From the sequence record OR204652.1: DNA of 40,444 bases; one strand, given 5' to 3'. Source of the DNA: Escherichia phage pO111. Below are positions 729 through 32,995 of this stretch, piece after piece. A model generated the notes under the pieces. It saw nothing but the letters and a program-made list of their open reading frames with translations, did no database searches and was not told the origin of the DNA. The position numbers and the translations under genes are program-made. Position 1 is the stretch's first letter. Each line of letters begins with the position of its first letter.

Positions 729-1172
729 TCAATCACTTAGGTAATCCTCAATGACCCTCTTGACCCACGCCACAGAGAGCTTATGGTATCTCGCTATGGA
801 CGTTGCGGTCCAGCCTTTATGGTATCTTCGAATCACTATGGCCTTACGTTCCTCGCTAGGGTCTCTCTTAGTTGCATCACGTTTACCTGTGGCCTTAGTT
901 GCACGACCTTTTGAGATGCAGTCCTCTATGTTCTCCTTCTGAGTCCCTTCCTTAAGGTGCTCAGGGTTAACACATGAAGGATTATCACATAGGTGCATCA
1001 CAACCATTCCGTCAGCTATCGGTCTGCCTAGATGACAACTCAGGGAATACCTGTGGGCCATCCAATGGACTCCGTTCACACGAATGCGACCATAGCCAGT
1101 CTTCGTCTTACATCCCTTAAAGTTCCAGCAACCAGTCTCCTTATCGACAACATACTTCTTCTTGCTTATCAT
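729..1172 (-). CDS. HNH endonuclease with C-terminal helix-turn-helix (putative free-standing homing endonuclease)
   Basis: 147-aa ORF; motif HLCDNPSCVNPEHL (HNH_3-like) plus C-terminal HTH; ATG with AAGGAGGT Shine-Dalgarno; lies between terminase gene 19 and phiOR. Confidence 0.8.
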   Translation of the reverse strand: MISKKKYVVDKETGCWNFKGCKTKTGYGRIRVNGVHWMAHRYSLSCHLGRPIADGMVVMHLCDNPSCVNPEHLKEGTQKENIEDCISKGRATKATGKRDATKRDPSEERKAIVIRRYHKGWTATSIARYHKLSVAWVKRVIEDYLSD

Positions 1173-1209: not shown

Positions 1210-2970
1210 TCACCACTCAATGAAAGACGTACCGTATCCCTCATCGTCCTCATAGTACACATCAACTCCTCCTACAGACATCTCAATGATATGCGTAGCA
1301 GAAACCGTAGGACGCATCATGTGTTCCTCAAGGAAGTCAGCAAGTACTTCACCCTCGACCTTAACGGAATCCAATTGCATGGACTCACGGAGGTACTCAA
1401 CGCCTAACGCAAGGGAATCCAATCGGTCATCGTGTGCCAGAGCGCCTTTCTCACGGGTAATACGAGTCATCTGGTAGAACAGCGAATACTTAACGTCATG
1501 CTTACCGTCTACGTCACGAGCGGACTGGTAGTCGGCCCTAATGACCTCATCACGAATGACAAGGCGGTGAGTCTGCATGACTGGCTCAAGGGTATCACAA
1601 ATGCGCATCTCCTTCATACCACGAGCACGAATCTCTTCCATCGCACAGTTGTGGTGTTTAAGAAGGATAGGACTGAATACCTTACCAAACATACCGTCAC
1701 CGAAGTTACTCTCGTAGACAACCGTCTGGACCCCCCATTGCTTAGCTTTCTTAGCGAGCAACTCAAGGGTCTTATCGGAGTAACCATCACGGAAACCTCC
1801 AGCTTCCATAAGGTAGATGTAACCGTTCAGGGTGTATAGCACAGCGTAACCTGTTTCGTCCTTACCGCGACCACTAGGGTCAATGACCAGAATCTTCTGT
1901 TGGTACTGACCAGAGTTGTTAGAACAATCGTGGTACGTATGAAGGTCATCACCCTTAAGGCCCACGTTAGGAAGGTCCTCAATGATGTTCTGACGGTTCG
2001 GAAGCCACTGGTAATGCATTGGGGCCTTCTCTAAGTCTAAGGCCGCTACGATAGCGTCACGGAGCCTCAGAGGGTACTTCTCGGCATCACTCAGGTTCGG
2101 GTTAAGCATGAACTGTAACGTAAAGCCAGCCTTACCGTATTCCAACTCACGCTCACGGAGGTCGTCTCGGTCGAATCGAACAGGGTCTGTAGGAGTACCA
2201 GCCAGCGCCTCAGGATTCTCCTCGTACTCCGCACGAAGCATTGGAGCAAGACGTTGGGCATAGTAAAGACTCTCTTCACGCGTCCTTGGGTACAAGGCAG
2301 GCCATATGATAGTGGTATACCCACGGTTATCCTCAAGTTCCTTATACAGAGTCATCTCAGTCTGAGGAGTACCAAGGTAGATAACACGAGATGTGGGCAG
2401 CGGTTTAAGAAGCGCAGCGAACTCTTGAACTAGAGTCCATAGCTTCTCACGGGCACCCATGGTCGCACTGTTAGACGGAATCTCAACGTCATCCGCAATG
2501 ATAATATCAGCACGGCTACCAGTTAACTGACCAGTGATACCTACTGATTTCACACTAGGCGAGTGGTCAGGACTAGCAGGACCAACATCGAAACTAATCA
2601 CAGAGTCACGCTGTCCGGGTCTCGGCTTCAACTCACTGAGAAACGGTAGCAGGTCAATGATGTTCTTGATGAATATGGAGTTAGCGTCTGCACGTTCTTT
2701 AGAAGCTGATACGATAAGTATCTTCAACTGAGGGTCCCGCCATAAGGACCACACAACGAACGCACATGTGATGAACGACTTACCGATACCACGGAAAGCC
2801 TGTAAGATGAACTTCTTGTTGTCCCCATTCGCCAGTACCTTAGCCATGTCAATCTGACACTTAGTGGGCACCGGAAGGTTTAACGCCTTCCATAAGACGA
2901 ACAGGAACGCCACGAAGTCTCCTTTCAGTTGCGCCACTACGAGCGCATTACGATTGGATTGAGTAGACAC
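1210..2970 (-). CDS. 19: Terminase large subunit
   Basis: 586 aa, same length and near-identical sequence to recalled T7 gp19; GTG start after AAGGAGGT. Confidence 0.95.
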
Positions 2971-2979
2971 ATTACCTCC

Positions 2980-3429
2980 TTACTTGGTTTCCTGCTTACG
3001 TTGCAGTTCACGAATAGTATCCTGTAACGCACGAATCCACGCATCACCCTTCTGGGTCACTGCGATAATACGTTTAGCATCTCGGTCGTCAAGTTCGGCT
3101 CGACCATCAGGCTCGAATCCACACTTACCATCGGAGGTTCCGGTAGTCTTGATTCTGACGCGCAACCGCTTATTGTCGCTACGCAAATCAGAAATAATCC
3201 TATCAGTGCTCCCTTCCAGCGCGGCAAGGTCTGCTTGATACTTAGCCGATATCTCATTGATTGCTCTTTGAGTGCTCGCCGTAGCCTCAACTCTCTTAAC
3301 GTACTCATTCTGTACCTCCTGTTTCCACTTGGCGTCCATTGAGTCAGCCCCAAGTTGCCATCCCCATCCGAATAGCATCCCAGCGAGAACCCAAGGGACT
3401 GTTCTCTTAACGATTGCAAGTAATACCAT
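2980..3429 (-). CDS. 18.5: Rz-like i-spanin (gp18.5)
   Basis: ORF track 2980..3477 trimmed to the internal ATG (MVLLAIVKRTVPWVLAGMLFG...) that aligns with the T7 gp18.5 N-terminus. Confidence 0.85.
   Translation of the reverse strand: MVLLAIVKRTVPWVLAGMLFGWGWQLGADSMDAKWKQEVQNEYVKRVEATASTQRAINEISAKYQADLAALEGSTDRIISDLRSDNKRLRVRIKTTGTSDGKCGFEPDGRAELDDRDAKRIIAVTQKGDAWIRALQDTIRELQRKQETK
3057..3308 (-). CDS. 18.7: Rz1-like o-spanin lipoprotein (gp18.7), embedded in the +1 frame of Rz
   Basis: MSTLRELRLRRALKEQSMRY...ICVATISGCASES lipobox; 83 aa from the internal ATG of ORF 3057..3419. Confidence 0.85.
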   Translation of the reverse strand: MSTLRELRLRRALKEQSMRYRLSIKQTLPRWKGALIGLFLICVATISGCASESRLPEPPMVSVDSSLMVEPNLTTEMLNVLSQ

Positions 3430-3811
3430 AAGTTTCCTCCAACAATCTCGCGTGAGTTTCCCTAGCCCAAGAAACAACTTCCTCTAGATTAGTGGTAGGC
3501 GCATAAGTTTCCTTACGACCTCCCATGCGAATGTCACCATAGTAGACCATACAGCCTTTCCTCTTTGCGAATCTAGAGTATACACCCTTTGGTAGTTCCC
3601 TACTACTAATCGTGTTAGCCCTGTTAGCACCTCTAGGTACTGCCCTCAGGTTAGATAACGCATTATCCAGTGTGTCACCATTTATATGATCGATGACGTA
3701 CCCTTCTGGGATTGGACCATTGGCCTCTTCCCAAATCAGGCGGTGTACATTGTGTACCTTACCATTTATGGTTACTCGATAGTACCCTCCACTCAGGTAT
3801 TGACCTTCCAT
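3407..3811 (-). CDS. HNH endonuclease with AP2-like DNA-binding tail (putative homing endonuclease)
   Basis: 134-aa ORF; GYVIDHINGDTLDNALSNLRAV HNH motif; ATG with GGAGA Shine-Dalgarno; sits between gene 18 and Rz and overlaps the Rz start by 23 nt. Confidence 0.8.
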   Translation of the reverse strand: MEGQYLSGGYYRVTINGKVHNVHRLIWEEANGPIPEGYVIDHINGDTLDNALSNLRAVPRGANRANTISSRELPKGVYSRFAKRKGCMVYYGDIRMGGRKETYAPTTNLEEVVSWARETHARLLEETYGITCNR

Positions 3812-18752: not shown

Positions 18753-20360
18753 AATGCCCGGCTGTAGACCTACGGAATCAGCGGCAGCAGCCATAGCCTC
18801 AGGTGAAGCTGTAGCCTGCGCAGCCATACCTTGACCAAGCGCAGCAGCACCACTATCCATACCCATTTGCATAGACTGTTGAGCCATCCTCTGTTGCTTC
18901 TGTTCTTCGGTAAGAAGGATACCAGAAGTGTCAATACCGATAGCGTTAGCAATGCGCAACTTAATCATTGCAAGGTTGATGTCAGGGTCGTCACGCATAG
19001 GAGCAAGAGCAGCCCACGCAGCGACACAACGCTCCAGCTTATCAAGGTCTTGTCCTCGACCGATTGCTTCCAGACCTGTACTAATGGTTGGCTCTACTGC
19101 TTCCTTAGGTAACTCAGGAATCTGTTGCGTGGCTTGTAGCTGCTTCAAGAGCACTCGTACCAGAGGCAATTGTAATTCTTGAGAAAGGATGGAGTAGACA
19201 CCACCTAAAGTATCTTCAAGTTCAGAAGCGACATACCGAATCTCTTCGGCTGTCACACGTTCACCTGTGCGCTGAACCGCAGAGTTCAACATAAAGGCAA
19301 ACGAAAGGCGAGCCTCAATAGCGTCACTGACAGCCTTGGCTACAGTAAAGTCTGCTTGCTTCTCCAGTTGGAGGAACGAGATGTCTTCTGGACGACCAGT
19401 AACGAAGTCACCAGTCTGAGCTTTGGTCAGTCGGCGTGGCTGGGTGATACCAGCAGGATTCACTAAGCCGATAACCTTAGAGCTAATCATGGACATCTTG
19501 ACGATAGCCTCTTGGAGATTCTCAAGGGACCGTAAGTCACCTAAGTATTCCTCAATGTACGAACGACCGTAGGATTCACCGTCAAGACGAACCATTCGAA
19601 TCGGGATGTATGGGCAAGCATCTTTAGGATATGCACCATCGGAGCCTTGTATCTCCATACCTTCAACCTCTTCGTAGCGGAGATATTCGTCTGACTCTTC
19701 GTCCAAGTAGATGTGAGTGTACACATCAATGGTCTCATCAGGTTTCTTCTCACCGCCTTGACCTTCTACAGCCTTACGGATGTCCTCAGGGAGAGCACCA
19801 AAAGCTATCTGGTCACGAGTCACCATTTGCAGAACGTTGCCGAATGCGTCTCGTTGGACCACATAAGAAGACAATCGGTACAGCTTCATGGGATTGTAGT
19901 TTGACCCTTCTGGTTCCGGTAGGTACAGTAGGACGTTACCCGCTACGACTAACTGCTTGAGAGCCTCAAAGAGAGTTACTCGGTAGCTGTTAGACTCAAT
20001 GTAGTTCATGATAATGCGCTCTACCATTGAGAGGCCCTCATCAACCTTAGCGAGTCCATCGGGGTCGCTCAGTAGTTGTTTTGCCTCGAACTCAGAGATG
20101 GTTAAGCGCATCCAAGTCTGCATGGGGAATAACGCCAGCATTAGTTTAGACGCTAGGTTATTCAGGCCACGGGCACCAACGGCTTGCCACGGAGTTGTGT
20201 AGTCTGTAGATGCGTTGTCGGAGTCCTTAGGGAATAAGGAGGGGATGGTATATTGAGCGCAATTCTGAGCGCGTGTCTCATAAGGAGCACGGTCGTTCTT
20301 TAAACGCTCATAGACGGACTTTGCGCCCTCCTCCGCAAGTCCTGTTCGTTTCTCAGCCAT
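18750..20360 (-). CDS. 8: Portal (head-to-tail connector) protein
   Basis: ORF track trimmed to MAEKRTGLAEEG (536 aa as in T7 gp8); its ATG overlaps the upstream HNH stop as TAATG. Confidence 0.93.
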   Translation of the reverse strand: MAEKRTGLAEEGAKSVYERLKNDRAPYETRAQNCAQYTIPSLFPKDSDNASTDYTTPWQAVGARGLNNLASKLMLALFPMQTWMRLTISEFEAKQLLSDPDGLAKVDEGLSMVERIIMNYIESNSYRVTLFEALKQLVVAGNVLLYLPEPEGSNYNPMKLYRLSSYVVQRDAFGNVLQMVTRDQIAFGALPEDIRKAVEGQGGEKKPDETIDVYTHIYLDEESDEYLRYEEVEGMEIQGSDGAYPKDACPYIPIRMVRLDGESYGRSYIEEYLGDLRSLENLQEAIVKMSMISSKVIGLVNPAGITQPRRLTKAQTGDFVTGRPEDISFLQLEKQADFTVAKAVSDAIEARLSFAFMLNSAVQRTGERVTAEEIRYVASELEDTLGGVYSILSQELQLPLVRVLLKQLQATQQIPELPKEAVEPTISTGLEAIGRGQDLDKLERCVAAWAALAPMRDDPDINLAMIKLRIANAIGIDTSGILLTEEQKQQRMAQQSMQMGMDSGAAALGQGMAAQATASPEAMAAAADSVGLQPGI

Positions 20361-20761
20361 TAAATATGTCTCCATGTCTTACCACATCGAGCGTCACTAA
20401 TGGTTCTCCTATGGATGCCATACATTTCTGACAACTCAGTGTTGGTTAAATTTGATGCACGAATCTCACGCACAATGGCCTCAGTGAGCTTGGCACCGTA
20501 ATGCTCTTCACCTCTGGATGCGTTCGCTCTACCTTTAGTTACACAGTCCATACGGTTATCACGCTGAGTGCCAGCTACAAGATGTTCAGGGTTGATACAC
20601 AGAGGATTGTCACAGGTATGCATTATGACCATACCAGTCGGTATCTCACCCTTTGATTTGATGTATGCTACCCTGTGAGCCAGCTGTGTCTTACCTTTGT
20701 AACCAACGAGACCGTACCCTCCTTTAGTCGTACAACCAGTATGAAGGATACAATCTGTCAT
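20360..20761 (-). CDS. HNH endonuclease with C-terminal helix-turn-helix (gene 7.7 position)
   Basis: 133 aa; HTCDNPLCINPEHL motif; same architecture as the ORFs at 729..1172 and 30008..30436. Confidence 0.8.
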   Translation of the reverse strand: MTDCILHTGCTTKGGYGLVGYKGKTQLAHRVAYIKSKGEIPTGMVIMHTCDNPLCINPEHLVAGTQRDNRMDCVTKGRANASRGEEHYGAKLTEAIVREIRASNLTNTELSEMYGIHRRTISDARCGKTWRHI

Positions 20762-23769: not shown

Positions 23770-23925
23770 TTAGTGACATACGGCCCAATTAGGACCCATC
23801 TTACCTTCGGTATCCAGAAGACACCGGAAGTTCCAGTGGTCTCCTACCCAGCGCATCGCTTCCTGTGCAGTCTCAATGACCACCTGAGCAATCTCTTCGG
23901 TACGGCAACCTACTTGAATCTCATC
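23770..23925 (-). CDS. 5: DNA polymerase gene 5, exon 2 (C-terminal 51 codons)
   Basis: Manual translation DEIQVGCRTEEIAQVVIETAQEAMRWVGDHWNFRCLLDTEGKMGPNWAVCH*, which continues the T7 gp5 sequence right after ...AYMAWVH. Confidence 0.85.
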   Translation of the reverse strand, partial: DEIQVGCRTEEIAQVVIETAQEAMRWVGDHWNFRCLLDTEGKMGPNWAVCH

Positions 23926-24526
23926 CTTTCTGTATTCTCCTATTACTAGGAGTGTCGGACTATATCATCAGCCTTTGAGTTGACTGTCTGGCGCTTCGGG
24001 TAACGAGGGAATCTCACCCTCGGCCCTACTCCTTTCGGATAGTCTCTACGCCTTCCACTCTCTAATCCACTTACAAGCGGCAGAGAACGTTACACCAAAC
24101 TTCTCACCTAAGTGTGCTCCTGTACATCCAGTCTCCAACCAGTATTCCTTCGCGGACTCTTTACGGTCAGCGTAGCGTTCCCTGTTTGTCTTGACTGTAT
24201 GCTCAGAACCTTCTAGTAACTGGAGGTGCTCTACGTTACAGCACGCCCTGTTCCTACACTTGTGGTCTACTTCATACCCTTCTGGTATATCTCCGTAGTG
24301 TTCCTTCCAGACTGTCCTGTGATACATCTCTAGGACACCGTTCGTCTTCTTTCGGAAATAACCATCAGTATTAAGTTTGTGTGACGTAGGGATGATACAA
24401 CCACTCGCTGTGGTCGCAAGGATTAACTTCTTGCCTCTCATATATCCTCCCTATGGCTTGGCTCGGTATTGCCCTAGAAGGGTTTCACCGAGTTCACCAG
24501 ATTTAATGTGCACAATGAGATAGTTT
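23926..24526 (-). mobile_element. Group I self-splicing intron in DNA polymerase gene 5, carrying an HNH homing-endonuclease ORF
   Basis: 601 nt between the gp5 exons; exon 1 ends in U; GUGCAC near the intron 5' end can pair with exon end GUGCAU (U-G wobble); R-like AGAGACUA and S-like GAUAUAGUCC elements; CUCCUA-GUAA-UAGGAG hairpin; intron ends in G. Confidence 0.8.
24046..24441 (-). CDS. Intron-encoded HNH homing endonuclease
   Basis: 131 aa ORF inside the intron; YEVDHKCRNRACCNVEHL HNH-type motif; ATG with GGGAGGA Shine-Dalgarno; stop codon overlaps the R-like element. Confidence 0.82.
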   Translation of the reverse strand: MRGKKLILATTASGCIIPTSHKLNTDGYFRKKTNGVLEMYHRTVWKEHYGDIPEGYEVDHKCRNRACCNVEHLQLLEGSEHTVKTNRERYADRKESAKEYWLETGCTGAHLGEKFGVTFSAACKWIREWKA

Positions 24527-26485
24527 ATGCACCCATGCCATGTACGCAAAGTCCCCATCCCAGCCATGCTTCAAGCCTTTCTCTACGAGCATCTCTTCGG
24601 TCTTGATAATCCACAGTTTGCAGATGAGAGCACCAGCAGATTGTAATAGGGTATTCAAGGCAGCGTGAGGACTACGGACGTGTACCTTACGACCATCCAG
24701 ACCTTTAATCCAGCGGCGTTTCCACTTGACTCGCTGTTCGCCAGCTACCCACTGAGAGGACTCAACAAGTGTCTGTTGGATAGACTCACGGAGTGCTGCA
24801 ATCGCTGGGGTGTTCTCAAGGAATTTCTTCTTGAGTTCCTTACCGCGCTCTTTACCAGCACCAACAATCTGTCCAATCTTCTCATCACCAGCACCATAGA
24901 GGAACCCATAGATAAACGTCTTAGCGTTATCACGGGTAGGCAATTCGGCAGCTATCTGGTTCTTAGTGTGGATGTCGCCATTGAGAATCTCGTGAGCGTA
25001 CTCACCGTTGTCAAAGCGAGCCATGAAGTGGGCCAAGCATCGCAACTCCAGACCGGAGGCGTCTATACCAGCCTGAACCCAAGGCTTACCTGTAAGTCCA
25101 TCTAGGTGATGTTCAGCGCCAAAAGCAGCGCGGCACTGCTCACCATAAGGAGAACGGACACCGGGTATCTGTGCGAGGTTAGGGAAAGCGTGAGTAGCGC
25201 GCCCAGTAACAGCGCCGTTGGGATTAACAGAACCATGAATTTTACCATCCTCAGCAACGTAACGAAGCCACGCCTTGTCTCCCTCAGCTGACTGTCCGAT
25301 TCTCTTCTGAATCATCAAGTATTCTTTAATGAGGTCGATTGCAGCTTGCTTCTCAGGGTCATCTACACGTACTCCTTCGAGTACCTCATCGTCCACCACA
25401 GGCGCACCCTTATCGGTGTACTTCGTGGGGACCCACCCAGCCTCTTGAAGTTTCTTCTGAATGTGGTCACGGGACGAAGGGTTAAACACTACGTGCTCTA
25501 CCGGAGTATATGGGGCACCAGCAACGTACTCGCGGGTATCCAGTTCGCAAGGCTCACGGCCTTCTCGTTGTGCCTTGTTCTTAGGCTTCTTAAAGATACC
25601 ACCAACTTTAGGTGTCTTAATGCGAGGGTATTTAGGCAGTGGTTTACCTGTCCGAGGATGGCAGAACATCTCAGTGCCACCTTTAGGCTGATACCACGAG
25701 CCGAACGTTTCGGTCAGCTTACGCAGCAACTCTGAGCGGCGAGCAGCCAACTCTACGTACAACTCCTCGATTGCTTTCGTGTCAAACGGGAATCCATTAC
25801 GCTCTTGCTTAGCGAGTAGCCATGCAGCGCGATGTTCAACATCAACGGCCTCAAGGGATTCTGACCAGAACGTAGTGTAGCCTACGTCCGTAAAGTCAAT
25901 CTCAGGAGGGAAGTAATGTTTATCAGAGAGTAGCTTCTCAAGGAGAGCCTTAGTGACCACAACGTCCTGAACGTTATAGGCCATCATCTCTTCGTTGAAG
26001 TTCCACCACTCCATTCCGTCAACGTATTCTTCACCTTGCTCTTCAAGCATACGCTTAAAGTCATCCTTGTATTCACCCTTCATCTCACCTAAGCGATAGC
26101 CCCACGCCTCCAAAGCGTGAGACCCAAAGCGTTTACCGGGCAACTTACCGGAACGCAGAAGACCCATATCGGTGTCTTTAAGGTTAGAGTGAATCAATCG
26201 TGACAGCACAAGGGTGTCGATACAGTTCTCACGGGGAAGGTGGAACTCACGGTTCAATTGTAGCTTTGCCAGTTTGGTCAATGCGGGAACGTCATACTTG
26301 TGACCGTTGTGGAACACGATAAGACCGCCTCGTGCAACCTCGGCTTCCAGCGCATCCAGATACGCACCGAAGTCACTCGGACGGTAGCTTACGTACTCAG
26401 CGGTGGAGTAGTCATAGATAACCCCGCAGTGGAACTTAGTGACGCTCTCTAAGAGGGCGTTAGCTTCGATGTCAGAAACGATCAT
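24527..26485 (-). CDS. 5: DNA polymerase gene 5, exon 1 (653 codons)
   Basis: Near-identical to recalled T7 gp5 residues 1-653; the unspliced ORF runs 7 extra codons (KLSHCAH*) into the intron. Confidence 0.9.
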
Positions 26486-27325: not shown

Positions 27326-29075
<1,750 letters not shown>

Positions 29076-29107
29076 TCAATGATGCGAACAAAGGGAAACC
29101 GTTGTGG

Positions 29108-29130
29108 TCTCCCTATAGTGAGTTCAATTA
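29108..29130 (-). promoter_or_regulatory. T7-type phage RNAP promoter (phi3.8 position) with a phi10-like leader
   Basis: Reverse complement TAATTGAACTCACTATAGGGAGACCACAACGGTTTCCC; gene 4 follows directly, with no gene 3.8. Confidence 0.8.
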
Positions 29131-29131
29131 A

Positions 29132-29587
29132 TTAGCCACGGTCTGACGCGACAAGTTCGTTCTTCTCCCACCAACGCTTAAGGTCGAACGAAGGGCAAGC
29201 CTTCGGAGCCACATCGTGATGGGCTTTCAGTACAGCGCCTTCGTACTTAGCCAGTAGTGTGACAAGCAGTGAGCGAAGGGATTGCATCTGGGCTGGCGTA
29301 AAGTTAGCGTCGAACTTGCCTTTATCGTCAATGCCACCAACAAGGCAGACACCGATGGAGTTATGGTTGTGACCCTTAGCGTGAGAACCTACAGCCATCT
29401 CATCTCGGCCTTCCTCTACAGTGCCATCGCGCTTGATGATAAAATGATACCCGACATCAAGCCAACCTTGCTCTTTATGCCACTGACGAATCTCACGGAC
29501 ACCTACATTCTGATTTGGCTTGGTAGCCGAGCAGTGAACAAAGATTGCGTCAGTAGATTCGCGTTGTTTAAACTGTACACGAGCCAT
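29132..29587 (-). CDS. 3.5: Lysozyme (N-acetylmuramoyl-L-alanine amidase, RNAP inhibitor)
   Basis: 151 aa, MARVQFKQRESTDAIFVHCSATKPNQNVG matches recalled T7 gp3.5. Confidence 0.95.
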   Translation of the reverse strand: MARVQFKQRESTDAIFVHCSATKPNQNVGVREIRQWHKEQGWLDVGYHFIIKRDGTVEEGRDEMAVGSHAKGHNHNSIGVCLVGGIDDKGKFDANFTPAQMQSLRSLLVTLLAKYEGAVLKAHHDVAPKACPSFDLKRWWEKNELVASDRG

Positions 29588-30036
29588 TATTTCTTCTCCT
29601 TCTTAATAATCATTTTGTCCCAAGGAATCTCCTTACTAGGTTCTTTAAGCCATTCCGCAGGTATCAACTTGTCTGCGAACTTAATGCTATGTTTTTCTGC
29701 CCACTCACCGTAGCTGGTGGGAGACCCTTTGTATAACTTGGTGCGACTTGAAGAGAACACGATGCGTATATCGAGGGATGGGAACTGTTCGCGAATAAGT
29801 AAATGTTTCTTACGGTCTTCCGCTTCAAATAGTCCCTTGAACTCTACTATAATACCGTTTGGTAAAAGCGCATCTGGTGTGTATTTATGATTACTCGCTG
29901 GGATTACGTAGGGGATTGAGAAAGACTCATACTTAGCCTTGACCCCCATGCTCTCCAAGCGAGCCATATTCTTCTCTTCAAGTCCACTTCGGTAGTTTCC
30001 TACACGTTTAATTCCTCTTGCTGCGTAACCTGCCAT
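29587..30036 (-). CDS. 3: Endonuclease I (Holliday junction resolvase)
   Basis: 149 aa, matches recalled T7 gp3. Confidence 0.93.
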   Translation of the reverse strand: MAGYAARGIKRVGNYRSGLEEKNMARLESMGVKAKYESFSIPYVIPASNHKYTPDALLPNGIIVEFKGLFEAEDRKKHLLIREQFPSLDIRIVFSSSRTKLYKGSPTSYGEWAEKHSIKFADKLIPAEWLKEPSKEIPWDKMIIKKEKK

Positions 30037-30436
30037 AAGTCCTCCTGTTTCGTATCATACTGATAGTCGCAGGAGAAACCCCAAAGTCATCAGCCAATTC
30101 GTAGCCTTTCTTTGTGGAAGACATTATGGTTAGTACATCATCATCACTAAGTTTATGTCCTTTACGTCCCCTCCCCTTGGAGGCCATATCTGCTAGGTTC
30201 TCAGCTTGAGTCCCTAGAGATAAGTGTTCAGGGTTGCAGCACTTACGGTTATCACAAGAATGCATTACAACATCGTTAGGTGCTGCCCCAGCCATGACCC
30301 TGTGAATGTAAACGGGGCGACCAGTTTCTGGGTTGCGAATCTGACCGTACCCATTTGTTTTCACAGAGCCTTGCCACTCCCAGCATCCAGAAGACGTAAC
30401 CTCAATTCGCTTGAGGATTTTCTCCTGCAAGCCCAT
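30008..30436 (-). CDS. HNH endonuclease with C-terminal helix-turn-helix (gene 2.8 position)
   Basis: 142 aa; HSCDNRKCCNPEHL motif; overlaps the gene 3 start by 29 nt. Confidence 0.8.
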   Translation of the reverse strand: MGLQEKILKRIEVTSSGCWEWQGSVKTNGYGQIRNPETGRPVYIHRVMAGAAPNDVVMHSCDNRKCCNPEHLSLGTQAENLADMASKGRGRKGHKLSDDDVLTIMSSTKKGYELADDFGVSPATISMIRNRRTYGRLRSKRN

Positions 30437-30438
30437 AA

Positions 30439-31140
30439 TTAAAAGTCACCGTCTGAATCTTCTTCGTAAGAGTCTTCGTCAGATTCCTGAGACCAGTCTT
30501 CTTCGTCGCATGGTTTGCTCGCTTTGGCAGAACCAGAGGCAACATAACCGTTCTCTTCGATCTCGTCACCCCAATCATCACTGTCGCCACCAAAGGTAGC
30601 CAGTTCGACCAGCATGACAGACTCTAGCTGTAGCTTAACACTTGCGCCGACTGCCTGATTCCATTTATACGGAACCAGAGAGTATTTGACTTTCAGCTTA
30701 GAGCCACCACCGATAATCGGCACATCTTCCATTTTCTTGCCCTTGGAGTCAACCACAGTCAGGTTGATGTGCTTAGTTTCTTTGGTCTTCTTGTCCTGAT
30801 AGGAAGCATATGACTTGAACTTAAAGGTAGTCGTACCGTCACCGTTATCGAAGAACGGCATGTCCCCTTCATACGGTTTCAGCGGTTTCTTACCACGAGC
30901 TACAGCAGGCGGGTTTGCTTCGTATTCCTCAACGGCAGCAGCATAAGCCTCTTCGTGGCACTTCACGATTTCATCGACCATACGTTGACAACGCGGGTCT
31001 TTGTTGGGAATAGTCAGGTCAACTTTGTAGACACCACGAGGGTTCCCAAAGCCACGCTCTTCGTTGCCGTAGTCCGGCTTAGAGAGGTAAGCGTAAGGTT
31101 CAGCAGTACCCAGCGCAGAGGTGAAAATCTTCTTAGCCAT
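30439..31140 (-). CDS. 2.5: Single-stranded DNA-binding protein
   Basis: 233 aa with acidic C-terminal tail ending DGDF, matches recalled T7 gp2.5. Confidence 0.95.
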   Translation of the reverse strand: MAKKIFTSALGTAEPYAYLSKPDYGNEERGFGNPRGVYKVDLTIPNKDPRCQRMVDEIVKCHEEAYAAAVEEYEANPPAVARGKKPLKPYEGDMPFFDNGDGTTTFKFKSYASYQDKKTKETKHINLTVVDSKGKKMEDVPIIGGGSKLKVKYSLVPYKWNQAVGASVKLQLESVMLVELATFGGDSDDWGDEIEENGYVASGSAKASKPCDEEDWSQESDEDSYEEDSDGDF

Positions 31141-31184: not shown

Positions 31185-31205
31185 CTTCCCCAATAGTGAG
31201 TCGTA

Positions 31206-31208
<3 letters not shown>
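31185..31208 (-). promoter_or_regulatory. T7-type phage RNAP promoter phi2.5 (variant start region)
   Basis: Reverse complement TAATACGACTCACTATTGGGGAAG. Confidence 0.8.
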
Positions 31209-31513
<305 letters not shown>

Positions 31514-31521
<8 letters not shown>

Positions 31522-32056
31522 CGTAGCACTTATCCTTATGTTTCTCGTACAGTTCACCATAGAACCCAGCTTTCGCCATGTCCTTCTCTAAGTAAGCCAG
31601 TTCGGATTTCTTACCGGCACGTAGGCGGTACTTAAGGATGTTCCCGTAGCAGTACCCTTTGAACTGTTCACGGGTCATCGAACGGGCAATCACTTCGATA
31701 GCCTCAATGTCGTCGAACAGCATGTAATGGGAAGGCTTAGTGACACCTTCGATTGACTCAGTTGCTGGCTGGTCATCTGTCGGAGTTACCTCTGGTTTAT
31801 CCAGTTTAGGTTTACGTGGGTCCATCGCTCGGATTTCACCTAAGGTTATCTTTTGATCGTTATCTGCTGGGCAGAGGTAACAGGGGACATTAGAGCAGAG
31901 TAGTCCGCAGCCATTCAAATCATCTGGGCGACCTTCGTTATTGTCTATCAACGTAATGATCATCTCTTGTTCATGTTCGGTCATATCGTTAGCTCCTTTA
32001 GTACAGGTATGTGGGTAACGGTCGTCTTTCTCTAAGCAAGCTATGCAACCAGACAT
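31514..32056 (-). CDS. 1.7: Nucleotide kinase gp1.7
   Basis: 180 aa, cysteine-rich; aligns with recalled T7 gp1.7 but lacks about 16 N-terminal residues. Confidence 0.88.
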
Positions 32057-32497: not shown

Positions 32498-32995
32498 TTA
32501 TTGTAGCTCAGCTAGTAGTTTGTCGCGGGTCGCTACAGCCTCGTTAAGTGACTTGTGATATGAGACATATCGTCTGCCGAACTTCCTAACGGAGACGGTG
32601 TATAGGTTTCTATCATGTCTCTTATTGATGTGCTTAAGCCCCAGCTTGTTGGTGCAGAATGCTCCTTTGTTCTGATTGTTCTCAGCGCTTGTGACCACTC
32701 TGAGATTCTCTATGAGGTTATTCTGCTTATTTCTATCGATATGGTCTATCTGTAAACCGTCTGGTATAGGGCCGTTAGCAAGTTCCCACACTACTCTGTG
32801 AACCATTAAGTAGTGCGCCTTTCCTTCCACCCTGACACATAGAGTCCAATACCCAGTCTTCTTTAGATAGCCAACGGGCTTCCCATTAATACGCGAGAGG
32901 CCACTAGGAGACTCCCTGTCAATCTTAAATCTTTTCGCTACGATTTCCCTCAACTCCACGGAAGCAGGTGAAGGAAGGATGTCTGAGACTTCCAC
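32498..32995 (-). CDS. HNH endonuclease (free-standing, putative homing endonuclease) at the gene 1.4 position
   Basis: 165 aa; LQIDHIDRNKQNNLIENLRVVTSAENNQNKG HNH motif; GTG start with GGAGG Shine-Dalgarno; overlaps the last 71 nt of the ligase gene. Confidence 0.8.
   Translation of the reverse strand: MEVSDILPSPASVELREIVAKRFKIDRESPSGLSRINGKPVGYLKKTGYWTLCVRVEGKAHYLMVHRVVWELANGPIPDGLQIDHIDRNKQNNLIENLRVVTSAENNQNKGAFCTNKLGLKHINKRHDRNLYTVSVRKFGRRYVSYHKSLNEAVATRDKLLAELQ

What the first reader, a model, noticed from the sequence alone, without database searches (positions are those of the whole stretch)
30008..30436. HNH-HTH endonuclease at the gene 2.8 position overlapping the endonuclease I start
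A 142-aa ORF (HSCDNRKCCNPEHL plus HTH) lies between SSB gp2.5 and endonuclease I and overlaps the gene 3 start by 29 nt. It is the third member of the same architecture family. Possibly orthologous to T7 gp2.8 (139 aa), but I cannot verify that from sequence memory.
Basis: inference. Interest (0 to 1): 0.35.

Follow-up and report, generated by a model that had tools for sequence, protein, structure and literature searches.

The report
T7 gene 2.8-type HNH homing endonuclease
The ORF is a real, intact copy of the known T7 gene 2.8 type of selfish "homing" DNA-cutting enzyme, sitting between the DNA-binding-protein gene and the endonuclease I gene of a T7-like phage; it is a divergent allele of an ordinary, well-known kind of element.

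Summary
The window is a complete T7-like (Teseptimavirus) genome read on its reverse strand. ORF 30008..30436(-) encodes 142 aa between gene 2.5 (SSB) and gene 3 (endonuclease I), and overlaps the gene 3 start by 29 nt.

It is a His-Me/HNH nuclease (Pfam HNH_3 and zf-His_Me_endon above threshold; PHROG HNH families at 1e-28) joined to a C-terminal three-helix HTH. A confident AlphaFold model (pLDDT 89.7) best matches the homing endonucleases I-HmuI and I-PpoI. The catalytic and zinc residues H59, C61, C66, H71 and N80 have exactly the I-PpoI spacing.

It aligns without gaps to T7 gp2.8 (58% identity, E 3e-59). It is therefore the positional homologue, but a divergent allele: the best database match is 89%, and the best match among deposited phage genomes is below 60%.

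Most related phages have an empty 2.5|3 junction. Others carry one of about four HNH lineages there, or short scars of a deleted one. One distant phage carries this allele plus gene 3 at 90-97% nt identity against a roughly 65% background. dN/dS is 0.12.

Best reading: a free-standing homing endonuclease gene. It is a new member of a known kind and of low interest. Cleavage activity and target site are untested.

The parts
30008..30436 (-). Gene 2.8-type free-standing HNH-HTH homing endonuclease ORF, 142 aa
   Evidence: ORF list. Pfam HNH_3 and zf-His_Me_endon. PHROG HNH families at 1e-28. 58% gapless identity to T7 gp2.8. dN/dS 0.12 against the 89% allele in L004.
30272..30436 (-). N-terminal beta-rich region (residues 1-55) with invariant C18 in the GCWEW motif and near-invariant G29-Y30-G31 and H45-R46. 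Probable first zinc ligand and DNA-contacting sheet.
   Evidence: Family alignment A1 conservation. AF2 strands E11-13, E19-21, E31-34, E41-43. This region aligns to the N-terminal sheet region of I-HmuI in the profile match.
30179..30271 (-). Beta-beta-alpha-metal (His-Me finger) catalytic core, residues 56-86. H59 is the presumed general base, C61/C66/H71 (with C18) the zinc ligands, N80 the metal-binding Asn.
   Evidence: H59, C61, C66 and N80 are invariant and H71 near-invariant in 61 homologues. The alignment to I-PpoI 'HLCHNTRCHNPLHL...N' has identical spacing. AF2 gives E56-59, E72-75, H77-86.
30047..30154 (-). C-terminal three-helix HTH DNA-binding domain, residues about 95-130
30008..30046 (-). 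3' end of the ORF. It carries the gene 3 Shine-Dalgarno AGGAGG (30046..30041) and the gene 3 ATG (30036..30034), then the 29-nt overlap. It encodes the conserved tail ..RRTYGRLRSKRN.
   Evidence: Read directly from the sequence. The same arrangement occurs in T7, L004, L007 and FE44-type alleles. This end is retained in the deletion scars of CHRF_10025, L088 and L089.
30434..30441 (-). Gene 2.5 stop TAA, then TT, then the ORF's ATG. The spacing suggests translational coupling of the ORF to gene 2.5.
   Evidence: Sequence. Coupling is an inference from the 2-nt spacing and the absence of a strong SD.
30439..31140 (-). Gene 2.5 (SSB), the upstream flank. Its 3' half is more diverged from relatives than its 5' half.
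   Evidence: Pfam SBB_T7. Sliding identity.
29587..30036 (-). Gene 3 (endonuclease I), the downstream flank. It belongs to gene 3 allele lineage 'A', only 63% nt identical to T7 gene 3, and was co-transferred with the ORF into L007.
   Evidence: Pfam Phage_endo_I. Identity matrices. Sliding identity.
31186..31208 (-). T7-type promoter (phi2.5 position, 3 mismatches to the consensus). It probably drives 2.5-2.8-3-3.5 as one class II unit. The next promoter-like site is at 29108..29130.
   Evidence: Pattern search: 12 matches in the window against 0.01 expected by chance.

Best explanation
The ORF is a free-standing homing endonuclease gene (HEG) of the T7 gp2.8 family.

Expression (inferred). 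It is transcribed by the phage RNA polymerase together with genes 2.5, 3 and 3.5. Translation is probably coupled to termination of gene 2.5.

The protein (shown by prediction). It is a small two-part enzyme. The N-terminal part is a beta-sheet region plus a His-Me-finger (HNH) nuclease core held by one Cys3-His zinc site. H59 is the presumed general base and N80 the ligand of the catalytic metal. The C-terminal part is a three-helix HTH that gives sequence-specific DNA binding, arranged as in I-HmuI.

Mechanism (inferred). In a mixed infection with a related phage that lacks the gene, the enzyme nicks or cuts that phage's DNA near the 2.5|3 junction. T7 recombination then repairs the break from the HEG-carrying genome. 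This copies in the HEG and some flanking sequence.

Consequence of the overlap. The HEG's 3' end supplies the Shine-Dalgarno sequence and ATG of gene 3. That end therefore survives even when the HEG later decays.

What is shown and what is not. Shown: fold, catalytic residues, family membership, sporadic distribution, scars, a transfer tract and purifying selection. Inferred: expression, actual cleavage, the target site, and whether the enzyme nicks or makes a double-strand break.
For: Nuclease identity:
- Pfam HNH_3 and zf-His_Me_endon score above their thresholds. PHROG HNH families score 1e-28.
- The family profile matches I-HmuI over its full length (4.9e-4). It also matches the I-PpoI catalytic/zinc motif with identical spacing.
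- C18, H59, C61, C66 and N80 are invariant in 61 homologues.

gp2.8 family membership:
- 58% gapless identity to T7 gp2.8, E 3e-59, at the same position and with the same overlap into gene 3.

Mobility signatures:
- Of 80 IMG/VR loci with a gene 3 homologue, 45 have gene 2.5 abutting gene 3 by a 1-nt overlap and about 12 more leave 33 nt or less between them. Six of the 80 carry an HNH of one of the three types used as queries. A further 15, whose gp2.5 match is only 27-30% identical, show a 470-480 nt gap that was not identified.
- ESh6 is empty. PHB19 carries a different 165-aa HNH at the same site.
- CHRF_10025, L088 and L089 keep only the first 23-50 nt of an L091-type HEG fused to the gene 3 SD.
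- L007 is about 65% nt identical to the window in genes 2.5 and 3.5, but 84-98% identical across the HEG and 73-98% across gene 3.

Functional constraint:
- dN/dS = 0.12 against the 89% allele.

Literature:
- T7 2.8, 3.8 and 7.7 are treated as homing endonucleases, and the triple deletion is viable (bioRxiv 10.1101/2025.09.07.674715).
Against: No cleavage activity or target site is known for any gp2.8-family protein, as far as I could find. None can be derived here.

The T7-type and window-type alleles form a graded series (89, 73, 71, 58% identity) at one site with the same gene 3 overlap. That fits long residence with ordinary recombination as well as active homing.

Gene 3 allele type is not tied to HEG type. 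Lineage A of gene 3 occurs with three HEG types and with scars. The L007 tract could therefore be plain homologous recombination.

The diverged patch in the 3' end of gene 2.5 codes for a low-complexity acidic tail that may simply evolve fast.

The L007 copy is frameshifted, which shows the element does decay.
Confidence: 0.7

Rival explanations
1. A domesticated HEG-derived protein kept because it helps the phage. One example would be binding DNA ends or nicks to blunt break-sensing host defences, independently of nuclease activity. Another would be interference with co-infecting phages. Its own mobility would not be the reason it persists.
For: dN/dS of 0.12 shows selection on the protein. 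The preprint 10.1101/2025.09.07.674715 reports that catalytically dead T7 gp3.8 and bas24_0090 attenuate the GAPS4 defence. It also reports that T7 lacking 2.8, 3.8 and 7.7 loses competitions only when GAPS4 is active. The gp2.8 lineage has stayed for a long time at one site.
Against: gp2.8 itself was not tested alone in that work. Most relatives do well with an empty site. Scars and a frameshifted copy show frequent loss. Catalytic residues are strictly conserved, which a purely binding role would not require.
Confidence: 0.2
2. A decaying, no longer functional remnant of an old insertion, kept only because its 3' end provides the gene 3 ribosome-binding site and start codon.
For: The 3' end does carry the gene 3 SD and ATG. 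Scars in other phages retain just that end. The L007 copy has a 1-nt deletion.
Against: The reading frame is intact over the full length. All invariant family residues are present. dN/dS is 0.12. The fold prediction is confident.
Confidence: 0.07
3. A general phage nuclease or regulator rather than a mobile element. Candidates would be host-DNA breakdown, packaging-associated HNH activity, or an HTH repressor of neighbouring genes.
For: It has an HTH domain and a nuclease domain. A paralogue (729..1172) lies next to the terminase gene.
Against: The gene is absent from most T7-like relatives and is deletable in T7. From established knowledge, T7 host-DNA breakdown is done by gp3 and gp6, and T7 packaging needs no HNH factor. 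The closest structural matches are site-specific homing enzymes.
Confidence: 0.03

Closest known systems
Bacteriophage T7 gp2.8 (gene 2.8 product, 139 aa)
   Same: Same position between genes 2.5 and 3. Nearly the same length. Gapless 58% identity, E 3e-59. Same GCWEW...HSCDNxxCCNPEHL...HTH layout. Same C-terminal tail overlapping the gene 3 SD and start.
   Different: Only about 45-77% nt identity, where the flanks are 86-98%. ATG start 2 nt after the 2.5 stop, rather than GTG directly after it. 29-nt rather than 20-nt overlap with gene 3, and three extra C-terminal residues. It is linked to a different gene 3 allele, 63% nt identical to T7's.
I-HmuI (SPO1 intron-encoded HNH nicking homing endonuclease, PDB 1u3e)
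   Different: I-HmuI is intron-encoded and has no Cys3-His zinc site in the core (motif DHKDGNK...). This protein is free-standing and has the Cys-rich motif. Sequence identity is only 18%. Whether this protein nicks, as I-HmuI does, is unknown.
I-PpoI (His-Cys box homing endonuclease, PDB 1a73/1cyq)
   Different: From memory of the literature, I-PpoI is a eukaryotic nuclear intron enzyme, an obligate homodimer with a second zinc site and no HTH. The match here covers only the core and is weak in sequence (E 0.15).
Other HNH genes at the 2.5|3 junction of T7-like phages (PHB19 165-aa type; L091/L144 type)
   Same: Same insertion site, same broad family (39-49% identity) and same HNH + HTH layout.
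   Different: They are distinct lineages. PHB19 and the L091/L144 proteins have an extra 10-15-residue insertion between the nuclease core and the HTH, and all have different N- and C-termini.
T4 free-standing HEGs (Seg/Mob; intronless homing, e.g. SegF)
   Same: A gene inserted between conserved genes. Sporadic distribution. Localized replacement of flanking sequence, as expected from co-conversion. The comparison with T4 rests on general knowledge.
   Different: T4 Seg proteins are GIY-YIG enzymes, and homing has been shown experimentally for them. No experiment exists for this family.

Membership tests
HNH / His-Me finger (beta-beta-alpha-metal) nucleases | Profile match to curated HNH models above threshold | tested here: met
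   PF13392 HNH_3 at 29.8 bits (cut-off 24.8). PF05551 zf-His_Me_endon at 27.4 bits (cut-off 27). PHROG HNH families at 1e-28.
HNH / His-Me finger (beta-beta-alpha-metal) nucleases | General-base His at the end of beta-1 and metal-binding Asn/His in the alpha helix | tested here: met
   H59 and N80 are invariant in 61 homologues. They align to the motif His and final Asn of I-PpoI; the numbering H98/N119 is from memory.
HNH / His-Me finger (beta-beta-alpha-metal) nucleases | Beta-beta-alpha fold | tested here: met
   AF2 gives E56-59, E72-75, H77-86 with pLDDT about 95. Best structural matches are I-HmuI and I-PpoI. This is a prediction, not a solved structure.
HNH / His-Me finger (beta-beta-alpha-metal) nucleases | Metal-dependent DNA cleavage | not testable with these tools
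   Needs biochemistry.
T7 gp2.8 family (positional homologues) | Significant full-length sequence similarity to T7 gp2.8 | tested here: met
   58% identity, no gaps, 138 aa, E 3e-59.
T7 gp2.8 family (positional homologues) | Location between gene 2.5 and gene 3, with the 3' end overlapping the gene 3 start | tested here: met
T7 gp2.8 family (positional homologues) | Divergence in step with flanking genes (strict vertical orthology) | tested here: not met
   The ORF is 45-77% nt identical to T7, against 86-98% in genes 2.5 (5' half) and 3.5. It is a separate allele lineage.
Free-standing homing endonuclease genes | Sporadic presence or absence at a fixed site among close relatives | tested here: met
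   45 of 80 IMG/VR loci have gene 2.5 abutting gene 3, and ESh6 is also empty. Several HNH lineages occur in others.
Free-standing homing endonuclease genes | Evidence of horizontal movement with flanking co-conversion | tested here: inconclusive
   The L007 tract is 84-98% nt identical across the HEG and 73-98% across gene 3, against a background of about 65%. L089 and L090 are near-identical except next to the site. This is compatible with homing but also with ordinary recombination.
Free-standing homing endonuclease genes | Invasion-decay-loss cycle (degenerate copies and scars) | tested here: met
   Frameshifted copy in L007. 33-nt and 76-nt scars keep the HEG 5' end and the gene 3 SD.
Free-standing homing endonuclease genes | Site-specific cleavage of the HEG-less allele and super-Mendelian inheritance in crosses | not testable with these tools
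   No experimental data on gp2.8-family enzymes were found.
I-HmuI-like HNH + HTH architecture | C-terminal helix-turn-helix DNA-binding domain after the nuclease core | tested here: met

The most novel reading that the evidence does not exclude
The 2.5|3 junction of T7-like phages may be a turnover hotspot. Successive HNH lineages would replace one another there, and each would embed the Shine-Dalgarno sequence and start codon of gene 3 in its own 3' end. That would make clean loss costly, a mild 'addiction'. It would explain why every scar keeps that end. It would also explain why the gp2.8 lineage is held under purifying selection, possibly with an added anti-defence benefit like the one reported for T7 HEGs against GAPS4.
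Probability: 0.25. Interest if true: 0.4.

Novelty: new member of a known kind. Interest (0 to 1): 0.15.

Why it matters
The finding matters little on its own. It confirms that the ORF is a gene 2.8-type HNH homing endonuclease and adds one more divergent allele. The best match among 5.8 billion clustered proteins is 89%, and the best among deposited phage genomes is below 60%.

The comparative picture is mildly useful: empty sites, about four HNH lineages, scars, a transfer tract, and the HEG supplying gene 3's translation signals. It makes the 2.5|3 junction of T7-like phages a convenient, easily engineered place to test homing and HEG turnover. T7 genetics is simple and gp2.8 has never been characterised biochemically.

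Tried and rejected
- A single-sequence phmmer search against PDB found nothing. A family profile was needed.
- NCBIfam gave no hit.
- The Rfam gathering scan of the whole window gave no hit.
- The sigma-70 promoter and terminator scan around the ORF gave no more sites than shuffled sequence. The antisense ORFs (30224..30442+, 30114..30209+) have no support.
- I considered that the HEG type and the gene 3 allele move as a fixed cassette, and rejected it as a general rule. Gene 3 lineage A occurs with the window-type, T7-type (L090/FE44-like) and PHB19-type HNHs, and with scars. It holds only for the L007 tract.
- I considered that the diverged 3' end of gene 2.5 marks the cleavage site. I kept this only as speculation, because that stretch codes for a low-complexity acidic tail.
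- The IMG/VR scan with the ORF itself found no close relative other than T7. The 89% and 70-77% alleles came only from the large protein collection.
- The literature searches found no biochemical study of gp2.8.

Full report
**What the window is.** The 40,444-bp window is a complete T7-like phage genome read on its reverse strand. All long ORFs lie on the minus strand. The structural half is about 93% identical in nucleotides to T7, 13a and relatives. Twelve T7-type promoter matches occur on the minus strand, against 0.01 expected by chance.

**The observation.**
- ORF 30008..30436(-) has an ATG start and encodes 142 aa.
- Gene 2.5 (30439..31140; Pfam SBB_T7, 4.8e-89) ends with TAA two bases before the ORF's ATG.
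- Gene 3 (29587..30036; Phage_endo_I, 1.3e-74) starts 29 nt before the ORF's stop.
- The gene 3 Shine-Dalgarno sequence AGGAGG (30046..30041) and its ATG lie inside the ORF's 3' end.
- The motif HSCDNRKCCNPEHL is at residues 59-72.

**What the protein is.**
- Pfam gives HNH_3 (4.5e-7) and zf-His_Me_endon (4.4e-6), both above their curated cut-offs, plus a sub-threshold HTH_38.
- PHROGs gives several HNH endonuclease families at 1e-23 to 1e-28.
- An alignment of 61 homologues shows C18, H59, C61, C66, G75 and N80 invariant. W19, W21, G29-Y30-G31, H45, R46, D62, N63, N68, P69, H71 and L72 are nearly invariant.
- An AlphaFold2 model built on that alignment is confident (mean pLDDT 89.7). It shows an N-terminal sheet, a beta-beta-alpha core (E56-59, E72-75, H77-86) and C-terminal helices 98-106, 111-118 and 122-129.
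- The family profile matches I-HmuI over its full length (E 4.9e-4). It also aligns the core to I-PpoI 'HLCHNTRCHNPLHL...N' with identical spacing. So H59, C61, C66, H71 and N80 correspond to the I-PpoI general base, three ligands of its first zinc site and its metal-binding Asn. The I-PpoI residue roles are from my memory of the literature.

The protein is therefore an intact His-Me-finger nuclease with a Cys3-His zinc site, joined to an HTH. The overall layout is that of I-HmuI.

**Relation to T7 gp2.8.**
- BLASTP against T7 gp2.8 gives 58% identity over 138 residues without a gap, E 3e-59.
- Both genes sit between 2.5 and 3. Both end in a '..(Y/H)GRLR' tail encoded by the gene 3 ribosome-binding site and start region.
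- The nucleotide identity to T7 is only about 45-77% across the ORF. It is 93-98% in the 5' part of gene 2.5 and 83-98% in gene 3.5.
- No deposited phage genome has a full-length match above 60% protein identity.
- In the 5.8-billion-cluster protein collection the best match is 89% (P0001). Next come 73%, 71% and 70% (P0002-4).
- These, the T7 clade and the window form a graded family at this site.

The ORF is the positional homologue of gp2.8, but it is a distinct allele lineage.

**Evidence that bears on mobility.**
1. *Sporadic distribution.*
   - Of 80 IMG/VR loci with a gene 3 homologue, 45 have gene 2.5 abutting gene 3 by a 1-nt overlap, and about 12 more leave 33 nt or less between them.
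   - Six of the 80 carry an HNH related to one of the three query types. By pairwise identity these fall into the T7 type, a PHB19-like type and a separate L091/L144 type.
   - Fifteen loci with a very distant gp2.5 match show a 470-480 nt gap that I did not identify.
   - Shigella phage ESh6 is empty. E. coli phage PHB19 has flanks 92% identical to the window but carries a different 165-aa HNH there.
2. *Scars.* Salmonella phage CHRF_10025 and L088 have a 76-nt spacer, and L089 has a 33-nt spacer. Each keeps the first 23-50 nt of an L091-type HNH gene (MTLKEKLEAY...) fused to the gene 3 SD.
3. *A near-isogenic pair.* L089 (scar) and L090 (T7-type HNH, FE44-like) are about 98% identical through genes 2.5 and 3, except for the last roughly 130 nt of gene 2.5 next to the site.
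4. *A transfer tract.* L007 is a distant T7-like contig. It is about 65% nt identical to the window in genes 2.5 and 3.5, but 84-98% identical across the HNH gene and 73-98% across gene 3. Its copy has a 1-nt deletion.
5. *Selection.* dN/dS between the window and the 89% allele (L004) is 0.12, compared with 0.03 for gene 3. The protein is under purifying selection.

These are the expected signatures of a free-standing HEG going through invasion, maintenance and decay. They do not prove present-day homing.

**A limit on the cassette idea.** Gene 3 has two deep allele lineages that are about 63% nt identical. The window's lineage occurs with window-type, T7-type and PHB19-type HNHs, and with scars. 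HEG type and gene 3 allele are therefore not fixed partners.

**Expression context.** A phi2.5-position promoter lies at 31186..31208. The next promoter-like site is at 29108..29130. Genes 2.5, 2.8, 3 and 3.5 are thus probably one class II transcription unit (inference). A sigma-70 promoter and terminator scan found nothing beyond chance.

**Literature.** I found no biochemical study of gp2.8. A 2025 preprint (10.1101/2025.09.07.674715) treats T7 genes 2.8, 3.8 and 7.7 as homing endonucleases. It deletes all three without loss of viability. It reports that phage HEGs, including catalytically dead gp3.8, attenuate the GAPS4 defence. That supports the ordinary classification and supplies the main rival reading, a retained benefit rather than pure selfishness. 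Barth et al. 2023 (PMC10448857) describe HEGs near essential genes and at recombination boundaries in other phages.

**Verdict.** It is a new, divergent member of a known kind, the gp2.8-type HNH-HTH free-standing homing endonuclease. Activity, target and cleavage mode remain untested. Interest is low.

Noticed in passing
window 23936..24536 (-), with ORF 24046..24441 (-); exons 24503..26485 and 23770..23883: The DNA polymerase gene (gene 5) is interrupted after '...YMAWVH'. The C-terminal exon ('VIETAQEAMRWVGDHWNFRCLLDTEGKMGPNWAVCH') lies about 620 nt downstream. The intervening sequence matches the Rfam group I intron model RF00028 over its full length (38.4 bits, E 3.9e-8, below the gathering score of 50). 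It contains a 131-aa HNH ORF (HNH_3, 6.7e-17). This resembles the intron with I-TslI known from the T7-like phage W31 (PMC3428280).
   Followed up: partly
window 729..1172 (-): A 147-aa HNH_3 + zf-His_Me_endon + HTH_23 ORF lies just downstream of the large terminase gene 19 (1210..2970). It is a paralogue of the 2.8-type ORF (41% identity over 91 aa, 2e-18).
   Followed up: partly
window 20360..20761 (-): A 133-aa HNH_3 + HTH ORF lies at the gene 7.7 position, just upstream of the portal gene. It is a paralogue (35% identity to the 2.8-type ORF, 39% to T7 gp2.8).
   Followed up: partly
window 3407..3811 (-) and 32498..32995 (-): Two further HNH ORFs are of the other subtype (DHI(N/D)xN motif, no Cys box). 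One is 134 aa and lies between the tail-fibre and terminase regions. The other is 165 aa, lies just after the ligase gene, and its listed GTG start overlaps the ligase 3' end. Together with the others this makes six HNH genes in a 40.4-kb genome.
   Followed up: partly
window 29060..29132: There is no gene 3.8 between gene 3.5 (lysozyme, 29132..29587) and gene 4 (27360..29060). Only a 71-nt spacer with a T7-type promoter-like site (29108..29130) is present, whereas T7 carries an HNH gene (3.8) there.
   Followed up: no
L087 1666..1741 (CHRF_10025), L088, and L089 about 1985..2000: The 'empty' 2.5|3 junctions of these phages are deletion scars. They keep the 5' end of an L091-type HNH gene (..TLREKLRAY..TPSGC / MTLKEKLE) fused to the gene 3 SD.
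   Followed up: yes
L007 about 3095..3105: The copy of the window-type HNH gene in the metagenomic contig SRR30128514_0 lacks one base (GGCGGGGCAGC where the window has GGCTGGGGCAGC), which shifts the frame. The gene caller therefore reported a 122-aa N-terminally truncated product (P0005). This is either a decaying copy or an assembly error.
   Followed up: partly
L002 2815..2890 (phage PHB19, MN481365.1): The deposited annotation starts gene 3 late (126 aa). An in-frame ATG (ATGGCAGCATGTTACGCAGCACGAGGAATT..., MAACYAARGIKRVG) overlaps the end of the HNH gene, as in the window. It would give a full-length endonuclease I.
   Followed up: partly
window 31514..32056 (-): A 180-aa ORF at the gene 1.7 position has a DUF3310 domain (4e-21) only in its C-terminal third. 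Its N-terminal part is Cys-rich with no family hit.
   Followed up: no
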